A stretch of DNA of 64,000 bases from the NCBI GenBank assembly GCA_964612295.1, contig CAZTDY010000006.1, positions 35,546-99,545 on the forward strand, in the 5' to 3' direction. Each line of letters opens with the position of its first letter. Positions within the stretch are counted from its first letter, which is position 1. The position numbers and the translations under genes were made by a program. Source of the DNA: an uncultured bacterium. GTDB taxonomy: Bacteria > Eisenbacteria > RBG-16-71-46 > CAIMUX01 > WJJG01. The notes below the pieces were generated by a model. The model saw nothing but the letters and a program-made list of their open reading frames with translations, was not told the DNA's origin and made no database searches. Positions 1-64,000 of the stretch are shown here, in pieces.

Positions 1-163
1 TCTTTTTCGTGACCGCGACCACTCCTTTGAGTGTTGAAGAGACCCTCGCCGCCGCGCGGAGCTTAGCTCGCGACCTGGGCGAGGCCCAGACGATGCTCCT
101 CGATCTCCCCGAGTCCTATGAGCAGAGCACCTTTCTGGTCCGCAAGAAGGAGTCCATCCGATG
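1..163 (+). CDS. hypothetical protein, 3' end only (partial at window edge)
   Basis: Open frame from window start ends at TGA 161-163, overlapping the next ATG (ATGA coupling). No recognisable motifs. Confidence 0.3.
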
Positions 164-58504: not shown

Positions 58505-59513
58505 ATGCCGGGACTTCACATATCCGACCGCCTCCGCCAGGCCGTCAGAGCCAGTCTCGCGGGCAGCGGGTCCACGAGCTGGATGTCGCCTCGAAGGCGC
58601 TGGCTGGCCCGTGGCGCGATGCTGCTCTCGGCAATCTGTCTCGGGGTCGGGGTGGGGTTCACCCTGCGCAACGGGGCGGCCGATCCTGCTCTCCTCCCGC
58701 TTCTTCTCGGCGTCGGCTGCGCCTCCCTGGGATTCCTGGTCTACGATGTCATCGTGGGCCTCGAGATCCTCGAGAAGCGCGGCTACGAGAGCGAGATGGC
58801 CGTCGCCACCGAGATCCAGATGCGGCTCTTCCCCCGCGAGCTTCCGAATGATGAAGGCCTGTCGGTCGCGGCCTTTCACAAGCCCGCCCAGGCGGTGGGG
58901 GGGGGACTACTACGATGTGATACCTCTCGGCGACGGCCGTTACGGAATCGTGGTGGCAGACGTTTCCGGGAAAGGTGTCCCTGCTGCGATCCTCATGTCC
59001 AGTATCCGCACGCAGGTCAGGGTCCTGACGCCCCGCGGCCTGTCCCCCGACAACGTGGTGGCCTACATGAACGAGACGCTGTTCAAGGATACCGAACCCG
59101 CGCAATACGCGACGCTCTTCTACGGGTGTATCGATCTGAATGCAGGCTCGTTGACCTACGTGAATGCGGGGCATATCGCTCCGGTGATCGTGAGCCGGAT
59201 GGGGGCCAAACGACGGCTCGAGACCGGAGGGGTGCCGGTGGGGATGTTCTCCGGGTCGCCCTACGAGCAGGGAACAGAGTTCTTCGGGGCCGGGGACCGG
59301 ATGGTGCTCTACACCGACGGGGTCTCCGATGTCGGTCTGGCTTCGGGGGAGCTTTTCACCGATGACGATCTCGAAGACGTGGTGTTCAGCCATCGGACGG
59401 CGCCGGTCGACGAACTCATGCGCGGGATCCTGGATCAGGTCTATCGGGTGCATGGTGATCAGGAACAACCCGATGACATCACCCTCCTGGTCGTGGGGTC
59501 CGACGCGGCCTAG
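58505..59513 (+). CDS. membrane-anchored PP2C-family (SpoIIE/RsbU-like) serine phosphatase, interrupted by G9 homopolymer
   Basis: Two TM helices, then ...AQAVGG | DYYDVIPLGDGRYGIVVADVSGKG...DGVSD PP2C motifs. The two halves are in different frames (58358-frame and 58611-frame). They join perfectly if the G run 58897-58905 were 8 G instead of 9. Confidence 0.65.
58897..58905. repeat. poly-G homopolymer (9 nt) inside coding sequence
   Basis: Direct reading: GTGGGGGGGGGAC. Confidence 0.9.
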
Positions 59514-59688
59514 GGTGGGGGGATTCCCAGAAGGCCTCGTCGCTCAGGGCCTCGCAGGGCTCGGATTCGCTTCTCGACCTCTGGCCCCCCCTGCTGTCCT
59601 CCAAATTCGCTTCTGCGATATCCCCACCTTGACATCCGAGCCTTTCATCACCAATCATCTGTCAGTCCACAACGAGCAGGAGAGGTGA

Positions 59689-60111
59689 ATGAAGTACTTG
59701 AAGACAGATGCAGCCAAATGCGAGGGCGTTCGCGCGTGCGAACGGCGTTGCGCGCAGGTGTACCACAAGACCGAGGATGCGGCCTACTCGGCCATTCGAA
59801 TCGAAGAGCGTGAGGGGGGAGGCATCCGGATTCACGCCTGCACACAGTGCGGCGTCTGCATCGACGTCTGTCCCACACGTGCGCTCAGGCGTAACAAGCT
59901 GGGCGTCGTCATGCTCTACAAGAAGGACTGCATCGGTTGCTTCCAGTGCGTCGGGTACTGCCCCGAGGAGGCGATCTTCGATCATCCCGACCTGGACTAC
60001 CCGATCAAGTGCATTGCGTGCGGCCAATGCGTAAAAGAGTGTCCGCACGGAGCCCTGGCGATTGACGAAGTTCACCTTTCCAGCGTGGCGACCGAGGCCT
60101 CCGCTGGTTAG
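59689..60111 (+). CDS. 4Fe-4S ferredoxin-type protein (multiple CxxCxxCxxxCP clusters)
   Basis: CTQCGVCIDVCP, CIGCFQCVGYCP, CIACGQCVKECP motifs. RBS AGGAGAGG. Confidence 0.7.
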   Translation: MKYLKTDAAKCEGVRACERRCAQVYHKTEDAAYSAIRIEEREGGGIRIHACTQCGVCIDVCPTRALRRNKLGVVMLYKKDCIGCFQCVGYCPEEAIFDHPDLDYPIKCIACGQCVKECPHGALAIDEVHLSSVATEASAG

Positions 60112-60117
60112 GCGGAT

Positions 60118-60147
60118 TTGACAAACTGCCCTCCGGTGGGCTACCAT
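60118..60147 (+). promoter_or_regulatory. putative sigma70-type promoter for trp leader (TTGACA-N17-TACCAT)
   Basis: Consensus -35 hexamer TTGACA at 60118-60123. Plausible -10 17 nt downstream. About 70 nt upstream of leader ATG. Confidence 0.35.
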
Positions 60148-60216
60148 CTTCAGTCACAGAAGCGTCTCGCCACGGGCGGGCCGGGATTGGGACTCGCGGC
60201 GAGCGAAAGGTCGATC

Positions 60217-60333
60217 ATGAATCTGTCGGGAAACCACCAACCAGTTGGCACCCTAAGTGCCCTCTATTGTTGGCGATGGTGGCGTGGCCCCCAGTCGATG
60301 GCGGCGCGTGCCCGTTCCCGTGATTTGACCTGA
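60217..60333 (+). CDS. trpL: trp operon leader peptide with three Trp codons (C-W-R-W-W)
   Basis: ATG 60217 with AAAGG RBS. 38 codons MNLSGNHQPVGTLSALYCWRWWRGPQSMAARARSRDLT. UGG codons at 60271, 60277, 60280. Stop 23 nt before terminator hairpin. Confidence 0.6.
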   Translation: MNLSGNHQPVGTLSALYCWRWWRGPQSMAARARSRDLT

Positions 60334-60356
60334 TCTCAACCTGAATCAATCACTAG

Positions 60357-60396
60357 GCGGCCCGCCATCGGATAGGTGGCGGGCCGCTTCTATTTT
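60357..60396 (+). terminator. trp attenuator terminator hairpin (with upstream antiterminator complement)
   Basis: 11-bp stem GCGGCCCGCCA/TGGCGGGCCGC, 9-nt loop, then TTCTATTTT. Upstream CGATGGCGG (60295-60303) is complementary to the 5' arm CCGCCATCG, allowing an alternative antiterminator. Confidence 0.65.
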
Positions 60397-60415
60397 GCCG
60401 AAAGGGAAGGTAGAC

Positions 60416-61924
60416 ATGGGAGATGGGACGCAAACAAGAGGAGGGCGCCCGATGGTGAGCCCAACGCTGGATGAGTATTGCCAGATTTCGAGCCAGGGTG
60501 GACGCGTCCCATTGCGAAGACGAATCCCCGCTGACCTCGAGACGCCGGTCTCAGCCTTTCTGAAGCTCAAGCCGGAAGGAGCTGCGTTTCTGCTCGAGAG
60601 TGTCGAGCAAGGCATCCAGGTCGGCCGGTACTCCTTCATCGGCATCTCTCCGCGGGTGTCGATCCAATTGGCGGGCGGAACCGTGACCACGCGTCACGGG
60701 GAGCAGGTGCACGAGGAGCCAGTCGATCCACAGGACCCGTTCACCGCCGTCAGATCTGAACTCGACAAGATGAGCCAGCTGGTGGGCGATGATCTCCCCG
60801 CCCCCTTCGGGGGGGCTGTTGGGTACCTGGGCTATGATCTGGTGAGGTACTTCGAGTCGATCCCGCTGCCGGATGGCACCGGCCTGGGTCTGCCCGACTA
60901 CAGTTTCGTCTTCCCGAACACGCTGGCGGTCTTTGATCACGTCAAGAGCGAGATCGAGATCATCACGTTGCCGCCTGAGGGAGAGGCCGAATCGGCTTAC
61001 GCAAGCGGTCTGGCCCTGATCGATCAGTTGCTGGACGCCCTGCAATCCCCTCTGCCTCTCGGCCTGGAAGGCCCCGAAGCATCCGAACGCAAACCGCTGC
61101 AGTCGAACATGACCGAGGAGGTGTTCAAGAAGAAGGTCGAGCGCGCAAAGGAACACATCCTGGCCGGGGATGCGTTTCAGATCGTGTTGTCGCAGCGGCT
61201 TCAGGGTGAGACGCACGTGTCGCCCTTCCAGATCTACCGCGCGCTGCGCATTCTCAATCCGTCACCCTACATGTTCTTCGTCGACTTCAACGACTTTCAG
61301 ATCGTGGGCTCCTCACCCGAGGTGCTCGTCAAACTCGACGATCGTCACGCGCTCGTCTGCCCTATCGCGGGGACCCGGCCCCGGGGCGAGACTCCCCAGG
61401 CCGACCAAGAACTCGAAGAAGAACTGCTGGCCAACGAGAAGGAGTGCGCCGAGCACGTCATGCTCGTCGATCTGGGGCGAAATGACCTCGGCCGCGTCTG
61501 CGAGGTCGGCTCGGTGGAGACCGACTCCCTGATGCACATCGAGAAGTACTCCCACGTCATGCACATCGTCTCCCGGGTGACGGGAACCCTCCGCAAGGAG
61601 TTCGACATGTTCGGCCTCCTGCGGGCGACCTATCCGGCCGGCACGGTGACCGGTGCCCCCAAGATCCGCGCGATGGAGATCATCAGCGACCTTGAAGGCG
61701 AGGCCCGCGGCCCCTACGCCGGGGCGGTGGGTTACTTCGGGCGGCAAGGCGACATGGACATGTGTATCACGATCCGCACCCTGGTCATGAAGGGGACGCG
61801 GTACTACGCGCAGGCCGGAGCCGGCATCGTCGCCGACTCGGATCCCGCTGCGGAGTATCAGGAGACGCTGAGTAAGATCCGCGCGCTCACCAAGGCGATT
61901 TCGATCGCAGAGGAGGGGTTTTAG
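60416..61924 (+). CDS. trpE: anthranilate synthase component I
   Basis: GAVGYLGYDLVRYFE, LSQRL, GTRPRG, DLGRNDLGRV, GAPKIRAME chorismate-binding motifs. RBS GGGAAGG. Confidence 0.85.
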   Translation: MGDGTQTRGGRPMVSPTLDEYCQISSQGGRVPLRRRIPADLETPVSAFLKLKPEGAAFLLESVEQGIQVGRYSFIGISPRVSIQLAGGTVTTRHGEQVHEEPVDPQDPFTAVRSELDKMSQLVGDDLPAPFGGAVGYLGYDLVRYFESIPLPDGTGLGLPDYSFVFPNTLAVFDHVKSEIEIITLPPEGEAESAYASGLALIDQLLDALQSPLPLGLEGPEASERKPLQSNMTEEVFKKKVERAKEHILAGDAFQIVLSQRLQGETHVSPFQIYRALRILNPSPYMFFVDFNDFQIVGSSPEVLVKLDDRHALVCPIAGTRPRGETPQADQELEEELLANEKECAEHVMLVDLGRNDLGRVCEVGSVETDSLMHIEKYSHVMHIVSRVTGTLRKEFDMFGLLRATYPAGTVTGAPKIRAMEIISDLEGEARGPYAGAVGYFGRQGDMDMCITIRTLVMKGTRYYAQAGAGIVADSDPAAEYQETLSKIRALTKAISIAEEGF

Positions 61925-61926
61925 CC

Positions 61927-62499
61927 ATGCATCTGCTGATCGATAACTACGACTCGTTCACCTTCAACATCGTGCAAGCCCTGGGAGAGCTGGGCGCCCA
62001 GATCGAGGTGGTCCGCAACGACAAGATCACCGTGGACGAGGCGGTGGCGAAGAAACCCGCCTCACTTATCATCTCTCCCGGTCCGGGCACGCCGGACGAT
62101 GCGGGGATCTCGGTGGACCTGATCAAGGCTCTCGCGGGCAGCACGCCGATCCTGGGGGTCTGTCTCGGCCACCAGTGTATCGTGGCCGCCTTCGGCGGCG
62201 TGATCGAGCGCGCCCCGCGGGTCATGCATGGGAAGGTGTCGAACGTCTATCACGATGGCGTCACGATCTATGACGGCATCTCGAACCCATTCACCGCCAC
62301 GCGGTATCACTCTCTGATCGTACGCGAGGAGAAGTTGCCCGCCGATCTGCACGTGTCCGCCTATACATCCGACGGCGAGATCATGGGTGTGCGGGCGAAG
62401 GGGAAGACGATCGAAGGGGTCCAGTTCCATCCCGAGTCGATTCTCACCCCCGAAGGCAAGCAACTCTTCACCAACTTCCTGCAACTGGCCGGCGATTGA
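61927..62499 (+). CDS. trpG: anthranilate synthase component II (glutamine amidotransferase)
   Basis: MHLLIDNYDSFTFN, catalytic GVCLGHQ, HPES triad motifs. Confidence 0.85.
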   Translation: MHLLIDNYDSFTFNIVQALGELGAQIEVVRNDKITVDEAVAKKPASLIISPGPGTPDDAGISVDLIKALAGSTPILGVCLGHQCIVAAFGGVIERAPRVMHGKVSNVYHDGVTIYDGISNPFTATRYHSLIVREEKLPADLHVSAYTSDGEIMGVRAKGKTIEGVQFHPESILTPEGKQLFTNFLQLAGD

Positions 62500-62519
62500 G
62501 GCGTGAGAGGGGAGAGGCC

Positions 62520-63542
62520 ATGAGCAAGGCTGTGCTGACCAAGTTGATCGACGGGGCGGATCTCACGCGCGAGGAAGCCCGTGAGACCATGCAGAGCATC
62601 ATGACCGGTGAGCTTGCCGAGGTCGAGATTGCGGCCCTCCTCACCGCGCTTAGGGCCAAGGGGGAGTCTGTCGATGAGATTGCCGGGTTTGCCGGGGTCA
62701 TGCGAGAGCACGCCGTGTCGATTGCTCCTGCACGGGAACGGATCGTCGATACCTGCGGGACCGGCGGCGACGGCCAAGGGACCTTCAACATCTCGACCGC
62801 GACGGCCCTCGTGGCCGCGGCGATGGAGATTCCGGTGGCCAAGCACGGCAACCGTGCCGTCTCCTCGAAGAGCGGGAGCGCGGATGTTCTGGAAGCCTTG
62901 GGTGTCCGCATCGATCTGCTACCTGGGGCCGTCACGCGCCTGATCGAGGAAGTGGGCGTTGGATTCCTCTTCGCCCCCCATCATCATCCGGCGATGAGAT
63001 ATGCGGCGCCGGTGCGCAAACAGCTGGGTATTCGCACGATCTTCAACGTGCTGGGGCCACTGACCAATCCGGCCGGGGTCAAACGCCAGCTTCTCGGCGT
63101 GTTCTCCCCCGATCTCACGGAAACTCTGGCACACGTACTCGGCGAACTGGGATCCGAGAAGGCCTTCGTGGTCCACGGAGTGGACGGGGGAGACGAAGTG
63201 TCGATCACCGCCGAGACGGCGATCAGTGTTCTGCAGAACGGCGCGGTAAACAGCTTCCGGTTCCATCCCCGAGAGGTGGGGTTGGATCTGGTGGCGCCCT
63301 CCCAGGTGGCCGGTGGGTCGGCGGCCGAGAATGCGGCGCACATCGAGCGGGTCCTCAAGGGGGAAAGCGGGGGCCGCACCGATGCCGTGCTCCTCAATGC
63401 CGGGTTCGTCGCACTTGTTGCCGATCGTGTGACGTCTGCAGCTGACGGCGTGGCGCTCGCACGGGAGACGGTCGCGGCCGGGAAAGCAAGCGCCCTGCTG
63501 ACGCGATTGAGAGAAGCGTCCCAGGATCTCGCTGGGAACTAG
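62520..63542 (+). CDS. trpD: anthranilate phosphoribosyltransferase
   Basis: CGTGGDGQGTFNISTATALVAAA and NPAG motifs. 340 aa. Confidence 0.85.
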   Translation: MSKAVLTKLIDGADLTREEARETMQSIMTGELAEVEIAALLTALRAKGESVDEIAGFAGVMREHAVSIAPARERIVDTCGTGGDGQGTFNISTATALVAAAMEIPVAKHGNRAVSSKSGSADVLEALGVRIDLLPGAVTRLIEEVGVGFLFAPHHHPAMRYAAPVRKQLGIRTIFNVLGPLTNPAGVKRQLLGVFSPDLTETLAHVLGELGSEKAFVVHGVDGGDEVSITAETAISVLQNGAVNSFRFHPREVGLDLVAPSQVAGGSAAENAAHIERVLKGESGGRTDAVLLNAGFVALVADRVTSAADGVALARETVAAGKASALLTRLREASQDLAGN

Positions 63543-63578
63543 GGGGACAGGTGGGGATGCCACGGGTTGAGGTGTGTT

Positions 63579-64000
63579 GTGGGTGACTTCTTGGATCAGG
63601 TGGTGAAAGAGAAAGAGATCGAGCTCGTCCAGAAACGGGCGTCGGTCAGCCTGCAGGATCTGGAGAAGAAGATCACGGATCATCCGGTTCGCGGCTTTGC
63701 GGCTGCGCTGGGGGCATCCGGGACCCGGATCATCGCTGAGATCAAGAGGCGCTCACCCAGTGTGACGAAGTTTCGCCAGCAGAAGCCGGTTGAAGAGATG
63801 GCCCGGATCTACGAGCAGAATGGCGCCTCGGCGATCTCGGTCGTGACTGATACACCGAATTTCGGGATGAGCCTGGCCGATGTCGCCTGTATTCGATCCG
63901 CGGTGGCCCTGCCGGTCTTGGTGAAGGAGTTCGTGATCGATCGGTATCAGGCGCTCGAAGCGCGGGCGGCGGGAGCGGACGCCCTCCTTCTGATCGTGCG
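63579..64000 (+). CDS. trpC: indole-3-glycerol-phosphate synthase (5' part, runs off window)
   Basis: IAEIKRRSPS and ISVVTD...LVKEFVID motifs. Start GTG 63579 or TTG 63567. No stop before window end. Confidence 0.7.
   Translation, partial: MGDFLDQVVKEKEIELVQKRASVSLQDLEKKITDHPVRGFAAALGASGTRIIAEIKRRSPSVTKFRQQKPVEEMARIYEQNGASAISVVTDTPNFGMSLADVACIRSAVALPVLVKEFVIDRYQALEARAAGADALLLIV

What the first reader, a model, noticed from the sequence alone, without database searches (positions are those of the whole stretch)
60118..60416. Unannotated trp attenuator: promoter, Trp-rich leader peptide, antiterminator and terminator in front of trpE
Between the ferredoxin gene and trpE lies a 38-codon ORF (60217-60333, RBS AAAGG) containing three Trp codons within four positions (C-W-R-W-W), a hallmark of trp leader peptides. 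23 nt after its stop is a strong intrinsic terminator (11-bp GC stem + U tract, 60357-60396), immediately before the trpE RBS. The segment CGATGGCGG (60295-60303) is perfectly complementary to the 5' arm of the terminator (CCGCCATCG), giving the alternative antiterminator expected for ribosome-mediated attenuation. A consensus -35 TTGACA sits at 60118.
Basis: partly seen in the sequence, partly recalled or inferred. Interest (0 to 1): 0.6.

Follow-up and report, generated by a model that had tools for sequence, protein, structure and literature searches.

The report
Tryptophan attenuator upstream of trpE operon
A 38-codon, tryptophan-rich mini-gene and two mutually exclusive RNA hairpins sit in front of the tryptophan-synthesis operon; together they look like a classic ribosome-sensing on/off switch (attenuator), conserved in about 40 related uncultured bacteria but mechanistically familiar.

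Summary
Only small corrections are needed. The antiterminator segment lies at 60296-60304, not 60295-60303. The terminator stem has 14-15 bp, not 11. trpE most likely starts at 60452, not 60416.

I compared 38 non-identical loci from related metagenome-assembled genomes (MAGs) and metagenome contigs. These carry labels such as Krumholzibacteriia, Eisenbacteria and Latescibacteria, and their TrpE is 58-71% identical to the window's. All carry:
- a small ORF upstream of trpE with 2-4 clustered Trp codons;
- a terminator hairpin.

A TTGACx/TAnnnT promoter precedes the ORF in 35 of 38, and in 34 of 38 the best complement to the terminator's 5' arm starts 11-21 nt after the last Trp codon.

Both the terminator and the antiterminator show compensatory base changes on a structure-blind alignment. 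A covariance model built only from relatives hits the window once (60262-60395, 62.7 bits, E about 1e-16). A sister lineage conserves the Trp codons (100%), antiterminator (95%) and terminator (97%), while the 5'UTR has drifted (58%).

Rfam and Pfam have no matching family, and no public assembly calls the ORF.

A conserved anti-antiterminator (1:2) hairpin is not supported. The window's stop codon lies beyond the antiterminator, a small architectural variant.

Verdict: a new lineage-specific member of the classical trp leader-peptide attenuator kind. Moderate interest.

The parts
59689..60111 (+). Upstream gene: 4Fe-4S dicluster ferredoxin (context, not part of the switch). It has no terminator of its own before the attenuator.
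   Evidence: ORF; Pfam Fer4_9 and related families, E 2e-17.
60118..60147 (+). Sigma-70-type promoter of the leader transcript: -35 TTGACA (60118-60123), 18 nt spacer, -10 TACCAT (60142-60147).
   Evidence: 10 of 12 matches. An equivalent TTGACx-16..19-TAnnnT lies upstream of the leader ORF in 35 of 38 related loci. Both hexamers are unchanged in sister lineage L170.
60148..60216 (+). 5' UTR of the leader transcript, with the Shine-Dalgarno GAAAGG at 60205-60210. It includes GGGCGGGCCGG (60174-60184), which is complementary to the terminator 5' arm; this is probably incidental.
   Evidence: Sequence. Only 58% identical in the sister lineage, with a 23-nt indel. The complement to the terminator arm is not conserved.
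60217..60333 (+). Leader peptide ORF (38 codons plus TGA): MNLSGNHQPVGTLSALYCWRWWRGPQSMAARARSRDLT.
   Evidence: Homologous W-rich leader ORFs in relatives. Sister lineage peptide is MESTGNHQPVGTLSVSYCWRWWRGLQAMAARAPFRDLT. Not called as a gene in public assemblies.
60271..60282 (+). Regulatory codons UGG-CGA-UGG-UGG (W19, R20, W21, W22), the proposed ribosome stall site under Trp-tRNA limitation.
   Evidence: 2-4 clustered Trp codons in all 38 related leaders. 100% identical in the sister lineage.
60281..60294 (+). Candidate segment 1 (GGCGUGGCCCCCAG). It is predicted to pair locally with segment 2 when no ribosome is present. Weakly supported.
   Evidence: MFE hairpin 60281-60312. At family level this pairing is no better than shuffled controls (0.50 vs 0.48).
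60295..60313 (+). Segment 2, the antiterminator strand (core CGAUGGCGG 60296-60304). It pairs with the terminator 5' arm.
   Evidence: Duplex dG -27.9, 2 of 300 shuffles as good. On alignment A2, 82% of cells pair vs 26-51% in slid registers, with 7 pairs showing compensatory change. Position conserved at +11..21 nt after the last Trp codon in 34 of 38 loci. 95% identical in the sister lineage.
60314..60355 (+). Spacer between antiterminator strand and terminator. It contains the leader stop codon (60331-60333), 22 nt before segment 3.
   Evidence: In type-I relatives the stop-to-terminator distance is 18-32 nt. Spacer folding is not more stable than shuffles. 81% identical in the sister lineage.
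60356..60371 (+). Segment 3, the terminator 5' arm (GGCGGCCCGCCAUCGG). It is shared by the antiterminator and the terminator.
   Evidence: Three-way covariation links segments 2, 3 and 4 (alignment A2 columns 49/125/139, 50/124/140 and 52/122/142).
60375..60396 (+). Segment 4, the terminator 3' arm (60375-60388), plus the U-rich tail UUCUAUUUU (60388-60396). Predicted site of premature termination.
   Evidence: Terminator scan found 15 pairs; dG -32.1. 97% of cells paired with 6 pairs showing compensatory change. RNAalifold consensus. 97% identical in the sister lineage.
60452..61924 (+). trpE (anthranilate synthase component I), the first regulated gene. Shine-Dalgarno GGAGG at 60440-60444. 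The protein contains no Trp residue.
   Evidence: Pfam Chorismate_bind 5e-96 and Anth_synt_I_N 8e-34. The 490-aa form is the one in public collections. Trp count is 0.
61927..64000 (+). Rest of the operon: trpG (61927-62499), trpD (62496/62520-63542), and trpC (from about 63591, running off the window).
   Evidence: Pfam GATase 3e-58; Glycos_transf_3 7e-92 plus Glycos_trans_3N; IGPS 3e-34.

Best explanation
This is a ribosome-mediated (leader-peptide) transcription attenuator of the trpEGDC operon.

Proposed mechanism:
1. Transcription starts about 60154 from the TTGACA/TACCAT promoter.
2. A ribosome translates the 38-codon leader.
3. If charged tRNA-Trp is scarce, the ribosome stalls at UGG-CGA-UGG-UGG (60271-60282). 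Its footprint ends just before segment 2 (60295-60313).
4. Segment 2 is then free to pair with segment 3 (60356-71) as soon as segment 3 leaves the polymerase. The terminator (3:4) cannot form, and RNA polymerase reads on into trpE.
5. If Trp is plentiful, the ribosome runs over segment 2 and on to the stop codon (60331-33). It occupies the 2-3 spacer at the moment segments 3 and 4 emerge. The 14-15 bp terminator then forms and transcription ends at about 60390-60396.

Shown here: all sequence elements, their mutual exclusivity, their conservation and covariation, and their conserved geometry relative to the Trp codons.

Inferred: stalling, kinetic competition, transcription-translation coupling, and the steric role of the terminating ribosome.
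For: Anatomy.

Folding with the stalled-ribosome footprint masked: RNA downstream of the ribosome, folded up to segment 3, forms the 2:3 antiterminator (dG -30.2). Once segment 4 is added, the terminator dominates.

Comparative evidence:
- 38 non-identical relatives all have a W-cluster ORF and a terminator; 35 of 38 have the promoter, and in 34 of 38 the best complement to the terminator 5' arm starts 11-21 nt after the last Trp codon. The search space included 60 nt upstream of the Trp codons.
- Negative control: the region further upstream shows no conserved complement to the terminator arm.
- Covariation on the structure-blind MAFFT alignment A2. Antiterminator: 82.3% paired vs 26-51% in slid registers, 18 double-change cells, 0 of 500 shuffles reach this. 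Terminator: 97% paired, 22 double-change cells.
- A covariance model built from 14 relatives without the window hits 60262-60395 full length, 62.7 bits, E 1.7e-16. It is the only strong hit in the window.
- Sister lineage L170: Trp codons 100%, segment 2 95%, terminator 97% identical, against 5'UTR 58% and spacer 81%.

Downstream genes are trpE, trpG, trpD and trpC.

Outgroups with TrpE at or below 51% identity lack the element. One of them uses a T-box instead.
Against: - No transcript or genetic data exist for this organism.
- The classical 1:2 anti-antiterminator is not supported above shuffled controls.
- In the window the stop codon lies 27 nt past the antiterminator core. Unlike in E. 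coli or the type-II relatives, the terminating ribosome does not mask segment 2, so a kinetic or steric argument is needed.
- The terminator (-32) is more stable than the antiterminator (-28 to -30), so read-through must be kinetically controlled.
- The U tract is interrupted.
- The closest genome relative, L001 (TrpE 77% identical), keeps a near-identical hairpin but lacks the promoter, leader ORF and antiterminator. The hairpin can therefore exist without the switch.
- Counts over related sequences are not independent events.
Confidence: 0.85

Rival explanations
1. The hairpin is simply the intrinsic terminator of the upstream ferredoxin gene (or a constitutive insulator). The W-rich ORF and the complementary segment are then coincidences in GC-rich DNA.
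For: TGG clusters are not rare in this window: 6 observed vs 2.1 expected. L001 keeps the hairpin after the same ferredoxin gene without any leader. The ferredoxin gene has no other terminator.
Against: The ORF, the Trp codons, the promoter and the antiterminator are conserved with covariation in 38 relatives. A conserved promoter lies between the ferredoxin stop codon and the hairpin. Sister-lineage conservation peaks exactly on the Trp codons and segment 2.
Confidence: 0.03
2. Trp-dependent attenuation is mediated by a factor other than the translating ribosome: a TRAP-like RNA-binding protein, uncharged tRNA-Trp (T-box), or a small-molecule riboswitch that stabilises one of the two hairpins. 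The ORF would then be irrelevant.
For: Alternative terminator/antiterminator hairpins are common to all these mechanisms. A T-box does occupy the same position in a more distant lineage (L101).
Against: No Rfam family, T-box included, matches at E up to 10 in the window, nor at gathering score in 8 relatives. There is no T-box core and no run of (G/U)AG triplets. What is conserved is an ORF with clustered Trp codons at a fixed distance from the antiterminator strand, which is the signature of ribosome sensing.
Confidence: 0.04
3. The leader ORF regulates trpE in a non-classical way. One option is that stalling exposes the transcript to Rho or affects mRNA stability. Another is that the released attenuator RNA or peptide acts in trans, like rnTrpL/peTrpL of Sinorhizobium. 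The 2:3 pairing would then play little role.
For: Trans-acting roles of a trp attenuator RNA and peptide are documented in Sinorhizobium meliloti (PMC6614838, PMC7298713). Some actinobacterial leader-plus-hairpin elements did not behave as classical attenuators when mutated (PMC1262725). No supported 1:2 hairpin was found here. L084/L085 lack a U tract.
Against: Covariation and positional conservation of the 2:3 pairing argue that it is under selection. Rho-dependent polarity after stalling would give the wrong sign for a biosynthetic operon (inference from established knowledge). The peptide tail varies in step with the RNA pairing rather than as a conserved peptide.
Confidence: 0.08

Closest known systems
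Escherichia coli trpL attenuator (Rfam RF00513 Trp_leader; classical Yanofsky model)
   Same: A short leader ORF with adjacent Trp codons, an intrinsic terminator before trpE, and an antiterminator that shares the terminator's 5' arm. The logic is that a stalled ribosome gives read-through.
   Different: No sequence or structure homology: there is no Rfam hit at E up to 10. The leader is 38 codons, against 14 in E. coli (from established knowledge). The stop codon lies 27 nt beyond the antiterminator core instead of just before or within segment 2. A conserved 1:2 pause/anti-antiterminator hairpin is not demonstrable.
Type-II relatives in the same clade (e.g. L012, L013, L015-L020, L025, L090-L093, L155; MAGs labelled Krumholzibacteriia or Latescibacteria)
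   Same: Homologous promoter, WWW/WW codons, antiterminator strand GGGUAGCGGG, and terminator ACCCGCUAUCC..GGAUGGCGGGUUUUUU. The antiterminator starts at the same distance (14-16 nt) after the last Trp codon.
   Different: Leaders are 16-24 codons long. Their UAG stop lies inside the antiterminator strand (E. coli-like masking). A post-Trp segment UGC.ACC pairs with it in 96% of cells, though without compensatory changes. The window belongs to the long-tailed type I.
Actinobacterial trp attenuators (Corynebacterium glutamicum, Streptomyces venezuelae; predicted across genera in PMC1262725)
   Same: Classical leader-peptide attenuators outside Proteobacteria, in GC-rich genomes, found mostly by comparative genomics.
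   Different: Unrelated lineage and sequence. Here the family is restricted to a clade of uncultured bacteria whose TrpE is at least about 58% identical to the window's.
Sinorhizobium meliloti trpL / rnTrpL / peTrpL (PMC6614838, PMC7298713)
   Same: A Trp leader ORF and attenuator upstream of trpE(G).
   Different: In Sinorhizobium the released RNA and peptide have documented trans functions. Nothing here tests that.
Betaproteobacterial trpE leader ORFs seen in loci L039-L056 (…MFLSVRSWWQSSGGWWR*)
   Same: A W-rich leader ORF about 110-190 nt upstream of trpE.
   Different: Different peptide and different lineage. It was not examined further.
T-box leader (RF00230), as found upstream of trpE in L101
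   Same: Same genomic position and the same purpose: Trp-responsive control through a terminator/antiterminator choice.
   Different: It senses uncharged tRNA directly and has no leader ORF. The window has no T-box features.

Membership tests
Classical ribosome-mediated trp attenuator (mechanistic class) | Short translatable leader ORF with clustered codons for the regulating amino acid (Trp) | tested here: met
   38-codon ORF with a Shine-Dalgarno and W19, W21, W22. Clustered Trp codons in all 38 related leaders.
Classical ribosome-mediated trp attenuator (mechanistic class) | Intrinsic terminator between the leader ORF and the first biosynthetic gene | tested here: met
   14-15 bp stem with dG -32 and a U-rich tail at 60356-60396. 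Conserved with compensatory changes. The U tract is interrupted.
Classical ribosome-mediated trp attenuator (mechanistic class) | Antiterminator pairing that is mutually exclusive with the terminator (segment 2 pairs with segment 3) | tested here: met
   60295-60313 pairs with 60356-60371, dG -27.9. 82% paired vs 26-51% in slid registers, with 7 pairs showing compensatory change.
Classical ribosome-mediated trp attenuator (mechanistic class) | Geometry: a ribosome stalled on the regulatory codons leaves segment 2 free | tested here: met
   Segment 2 starts 13 nt after the last Trp codon in the window, and 11-21 nt after it in 34 of 38 loci. The footprint size is taken from established knowledge.
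Classical ribosome-mediated trp attenuator (mechanistic class) | Segment 1:2 anti-antiterminator / pause hairpin overlapping the regulatory codons | tested here: inconclusive
   A local hairpin 60281-60312 is predicted. Across the family, pairing of segment 2 with the footprint region equals shuffled controls (0.50 vs 0.48). A hairpin between the Trp codons and a C-rich motif gets weak support (85% vs 44-68%).
Classical ribosome-mediated trp attenuator (mechanistic class) | A ribosome reaching the stop codon prevents 2:3 formation by masking segment 2 | tested here: not met
   In the window the stop codon (60331) is 27 nt past the core of segment 2, so masking at the stop codon is not possible. 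This feature is met only in the type-II relatives. The mechanism proposed instead is occupancy of segment 2 during transit plus a steric block in the spacer, which is inference.
Classical ribosome-mediated trp attenuator (mechanistic class) | Trp-dependent premature termination in vivo or in vitro | not testable with these tools
   No transcript data are available.
Rfam RF00513 Trp_leader (enterobacterial family) | Match to the family covariance model | tested here: not met
   No hit at E up to 10 in 59500-61000, and none at gathering score in 8 relatives.
Clade-specific trpE leader RNA family defined here (model R1) | Full-length match to a covariance model built from relatives only | tested here: met
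   Window 60262-60395, 62.7 bits, E 1.7e-16, model positions 1-134 of 134. The next + strand hit scores 12.5 bits.
T-box leader (RF00230) | Match to the covariance model; conserved T-box core sequence | tested here: not met
   No Rfam hit and no GGTGGNACCRCG core. Positive control: L101 scores 101 bits.
TRAP-regulated trp leader (Bacillus type) | Run of 9-11 (G/U)AG triplets spaced by 2-3 nt, overlapping the antiterminator | tested here: not met
   No run of 5 or more such triplets in 60148-60452, where only 7 GAG/UAG triplets occur, scattered.

The most novel reading that the evidence does not exclude
The window's 'type I' architecture may be a distinct mechanistic variant of leader-peptide attenuation. 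It would be a three-segment switch with no anti-antiterminator, whose untranslated default is read-through. Termination under Trp sufficiency would depend on the ribosome travelling over segment 2 and then parking at a stop codon held 18-32 nt upstream of the terminator. There it would act as a steric wedge between segments 2 and 3 rather than masking segment 2. The coexistence of type I and type II (stop codon inside segment 2) within one clade would then record an evolutionary shift between the two modes.
Probability: 0.3. Interest if true: 0.5.

Novelty: new member of a known kind. Interest (0 to 1): 0.35.

Why it matters
It extends classical leader-peptide attenuation to a clade of uncultured bacteria, with MAGs labelled Krumholzibacteriia, Eisenbacteria and Latescibacteria. 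I found no report of a trp attenuator for these groups, though I did not search the literature for them by name. The element is absent from Rfam, Pfam and the gene calls of public assemblies.

The practical products are:
- a well-populated RNA family of about 40 sequences, with covariation for both alternative helices, that could be added to Rfam and annotation pipelines;
- a natural comparison of two stop-codon placements within one homologous attenuator, useful for testing how ribosome position sets the termination decision;
- evidence that transcription-translation coupling operates in these lineages.

It does not change the understanding of the mechanism.

Tried and rejected
1. Rfam search of the window leader at E up to 10, and of 15 loci at gathering score. 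Nothing relevant was found; the only hit is a T-box in outgroup L101.
2. Pfam scan of the leader peptide: no family.
3. Whole-leader MFE folding including the 5'UTR. It suggested a long-range pairing of 60174-60184 with the terminator 5' arm. That pairing is significant in the window (1% of shuffles). It is absent in relatives and altered in the sister lineage, so I rejected it as a conserved feature.
4. A conserved 1:2 anti-antiterminator: not better than shuffles.
5. A conserved, unusually stable spacer hairpin enclosing the stop codon: mean z about -0.4, not supported.
6. The MAFFT alignment of all 22 sequences mis-registers type-II antiterminators by 1 nt, so covariation was counted on type I only.
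7. Search for closer relatives. The metagenome scan gave nothing above 70% TrpE identity. Two members of the >=90% TrpE cluster sit on contigs that start at trpE. The ferredoxin cluster finally yielded sister lineage L170-L172.
8. TRAP-site and T-box-core pattern scans: negative.
9. L001, the closest GTDB genome: no leader is present, so it is uninformative for conservation and remains unexplained.
Full report
**Observation**

- Promoter: a TTGACA (60118-23) / 18 nt / TACCAT (60142-47) promoter-like site.
- Leader ORF: a GAAAGG Shine-Dalgarno (60205-10) 6 nt before an ATG at 60217. The ORF is 38 codons, MNLSGNHQPVGTLSALYCWRWWRGPQSMAARARSRDLT, ending with TGA at 60331-33.
- Trp codons: 60271-73, 60277-79 and 60280-82.
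- Terminator: a strong hairpin with 5' arm 60356-69, loop GGAUA and 3' arm 60375-88. It has 14-15 bp and dG -32 kcal/mol. The tail is UUCUAUUUU.
It is the exact complement of CCGCCATCG (60362-70). RNAduplex extends the pairing to 60295-60313 with 60356-60371, dG -27.9, matched by 2 of 300 dinucleotide shuffles.

One correction concerns the trpE start. It is most likely ATG 60452, behind a GGAGG at 60440-44. Most homolog matches start at or near residue 13 of the longer ORF (12 of the 22 closest loci at residues 12-14). The exact 490-aa product is what public collections hold; the 502-aa version is absent.

Downstream lie trpG, trpD and the start of trpC.

A cluster of three TGG in four codons is not remarkable by itself: six occur in the window over both strands, against 2.1 expected. 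The case therefore rests on the arrangement and its conservation.

**Relatives**

A TrpE-guided scan of GTDB species genomes and of JGI metagenome contigs returned a clade with TrpE 58-77% identical to the window's. Its MAGs are labelled Candidatus Eisenbacteria, Krumholzibacteriia and Latescibacteria, plus some automated 'Phycisphaerales' or 'uncultured bacterium' bins.

In 38 non-identical loci of this clade, the region upstream of trpE carries:

- a TTGACx-16..19-TAnnnT promoter-like site (35 of 38);
- a small ORF with 2-4 clustered Trp codons (WRWW, WWW or WW);
- a GC-rich hairpin, followed by a U tract in all but L084/L085.

I then asked, without any alignment, where the best complement to the terminator's 5' arm lies. 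The search space ran from 60 nt upstream of the first Trp codon to the terminator. In 34 of 38 loci the answer starts 11-21 nt after the last Trp codon; in the window it starts at 13 nt. That is just beyond the roughly 12-13 nt of mRNA a ribosome protects downstream of its A site (established knowledge).

As a negative control, the 130 nt further upstream shows no conserved complement.

Outgroups with TrpE at or below 51% identity lack such a leader. These include Vicinamibacterales, Chloroflexota, Hydrogenedens and other Eisenbacteria. One outgroup, L101, has a bona fide T-box instead (RF00230, 101 bits). Betaproteobacterial loci have a different W-rich leader.

**Covariation**

The test used a MAFFT alignment of 12 type-I sequences made without reference to structure (A2).

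| Helix | Cells paired | Slid registers | Pairs with compensatory change | Double-change cells | Shuffles reaching it |
|---|---|---|---|---|---|
| Terminator | 97% | 36-51% | 6 | 22 | 0 of 500 |
| Antiterminator | 82% | 26-51% | 7 | 18 | 0 of 500 |

The same columns of the shared strand covary with both partners (for example A2 columns 49/125/139, 50/124/140 and 52/122/142). That is what mutually exclusive helices predict.

RNAalifold recovers the terminator in both subgroups. These counts come from related sequences and are not independent events.

A covariance model built from 14 relatives, excluding the window, hits the window once. The hit spans 60262-60395 full length at 62.7 bits, E about 2e-16. 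The next + strand hit scores 12.5 bits.

**Close-range conservation**

The identical TrpE occurs on 18 contigs read from public assemblies; in the five that span the whole intergenic region the leader is identical or differs by 1 SNP. No gene is called between the ferredoxin gene and trpE in any of them. The 38-aa peptide is absent from the 15-billion-protein collection.

A sister lineage was found through the ferredoxin cluster (L170-L172). It retains the whole element, with identity tracking function:

| Region | Identity to window |
|---|---|
| Trp codons | 100% |
| Segment 2 (antiterminator strand) | 95% |
| Terminator | 97% |
| Leader codons 1-18 | 80% |
| Spacer | 81% |
| 5'UTR (with a 23-nt indel) | 58% |

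**Mechanism**

Folding only the RNA 3' of a ribosome stalled on W21/W22, up to the end of segment 3, gives the 2:3 antiterminator (dG -30.2). It encloses a weak spacer hairpin. Adding segment 4 makes the terminator the minimum-free-energy structure. Read-through must therefore be a kinetic outcome, as in the classical model.

The inferred sequence of events is as follows.

- Under Trp limitation, the ribosome stalls at 60271-82. Segment 2 is free and captures segment 3 before segment 4 is made, so the polymerase reads through.
- Under Trp sufficiency, the ribosome covers segment 2 while segments 3 and 4 are transcribed. It then sits at the stop codon (60331-33) inside the 2-3 spacer. The terminator forms and transcription ends at about 60390-96.

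Two architectures coexist in the clade.

- Type I includes the window. The stop codon is 24-37 nt past the start of segment 2 and 18-32 nt before segment 3.
- Type II has the UAG stop inside segment 2 (GGGUAGCGGG), the E. coli-like arrangement.

**What is not supported**

- A conserved segment 1:2 anti-antiterminator does not exceed shuffled controls. The window's predicted local hairpin is 60281-60312. In type II, a post-Trp UGC.ACC segment pairs with segment 2 in 96% of cells but without compensatory change. A hairpin between the Trp codons and a C-rich motif gets only weak support.
- The spacer is not unusually structured.
- A striking complement to the terminator arm in the window's 5'UTR (60174-84) is not conserved, even in the sister lineage.
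- L001, the closest GTDB genome, keeps a near-identical hairpin but lacks the promoter, leader and antiterminator. This is unexplained.

**Rivals**

- A plain ferredoxin terminator plus a chance ORF is excluded by conservation.
- T-box, TRAP and riboswitch mechanisms are not supported.
- Non-classical or trans-acting roles, as in Sinorhizobium rnTrpL/peTrpL (PMC6614838, PMC7298713), cannot be excluded. They are additions rather than alternatives.

**Comparison and novelty**

The element works like the E. coli, actinobacterial and rhizobial trp leader-peptide attenuators (PMC1262725, PMC1183508). It has no detectable homology to Rfam's Trp_leader.

It is a new, lineage-specific member of a known kind, with a minor architectural twist: the stop codon lies beyond the antiterminator, and no 1:2 helix is demonstrable.

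I rate interest as moderate to low for mechanism. The element is useful for annotation, for an Rfam family, and as a natural type-I versus type-II comparison.

Noticed in passing
L001:2380-2500 (CAYQJL010000028.1), aligned to window 60100-60460: The closest genome relative (TrpE 77% identical, same ferredoxin-trpE synteny) has a near-identical terminator hairpin just upstream of trpE. It has no promoter, no leader ORF and no antiterminator segment; only a W-G-W-stop remnant in a frame with no start codon. How trpE is expressed past that hairpin is unclear. Possibilities are loss of the leader, mis-assembly, or another mechanism.
   Followed up: partly
L101:52-322 (metagenome contig Ga0180433_10023627): A T-box leader (RF00230, 101 bits) sits upstream of a trpE that is 51% identical to the window's. 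A different Trp-sensing RNA occupies the same position in another lineage.
   Followed up: partly
L039-L056 (Burkholderiales / Betaproteobacteria MAGs), about 110-190 nt upstream of trpE: A different conserved Trp-rich leader ORF (…MFLSVRSWWQSSGGWWR*) precedes trpE. It is presumably the betaproteobacterial trp attenuator.
   Followed up: no
L012, L025, L090 (type-II relatives), promoter-to-ATG region: The leader-peptide ATG lies only 8-9 nt after the -10 hexamer. These leader peptides may therefore be translated from leaderless mRNAs with no Shine-Dalgarno.
   Followed up: no
window 60174-60184: GGGCGGGCCGG in the 5'UTR is a near-copy of the terminator 3' arm and complementary to the 5' arm (dG -23.5; 1% of shuffles). 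Whole-leader MFE folding therefore predicts a long-range alternative pairing. It is altered in the sister lineage (GGGCGGGACCGG) and absent in other relatives, so it is probably incidental.
   Followed up: yes
window 60452-61924: The TrpE protein contains no tryptophan residue at all.
   Followed up: no
Type-II loci, spacer between antiterminator strand and terminator (e.g. L015:2410-2425, L016, L019, L025, L090, L155): A small conserved hairpin GGAC-N3-7-GUCC recurs in the spacer of type-II leaders and of L094-L096. Its role is unknown, and it is not present in the window.
   Followed up: partly
L084/L085 (about 1123-1165) and L082 (about 1020-1060): In L084/L085 the conserved hairpin is not followed by a U tract (tail CCGCTTCAT). 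In L082 the leader ORF looks degenerate and would run through the hairpin. These are possible decayed or non-canonical versions of the switch.
   Followed up: no
window 60062-60126: A CCAGCG-N16-CGCTGG stem-loop spans the 3' end of the ferredoxin gene. It gave a spurious weak mir-456 hit (18.6 bits, E 0.87). No U tract follows, so it is probably insignificant.
   Followed up: no
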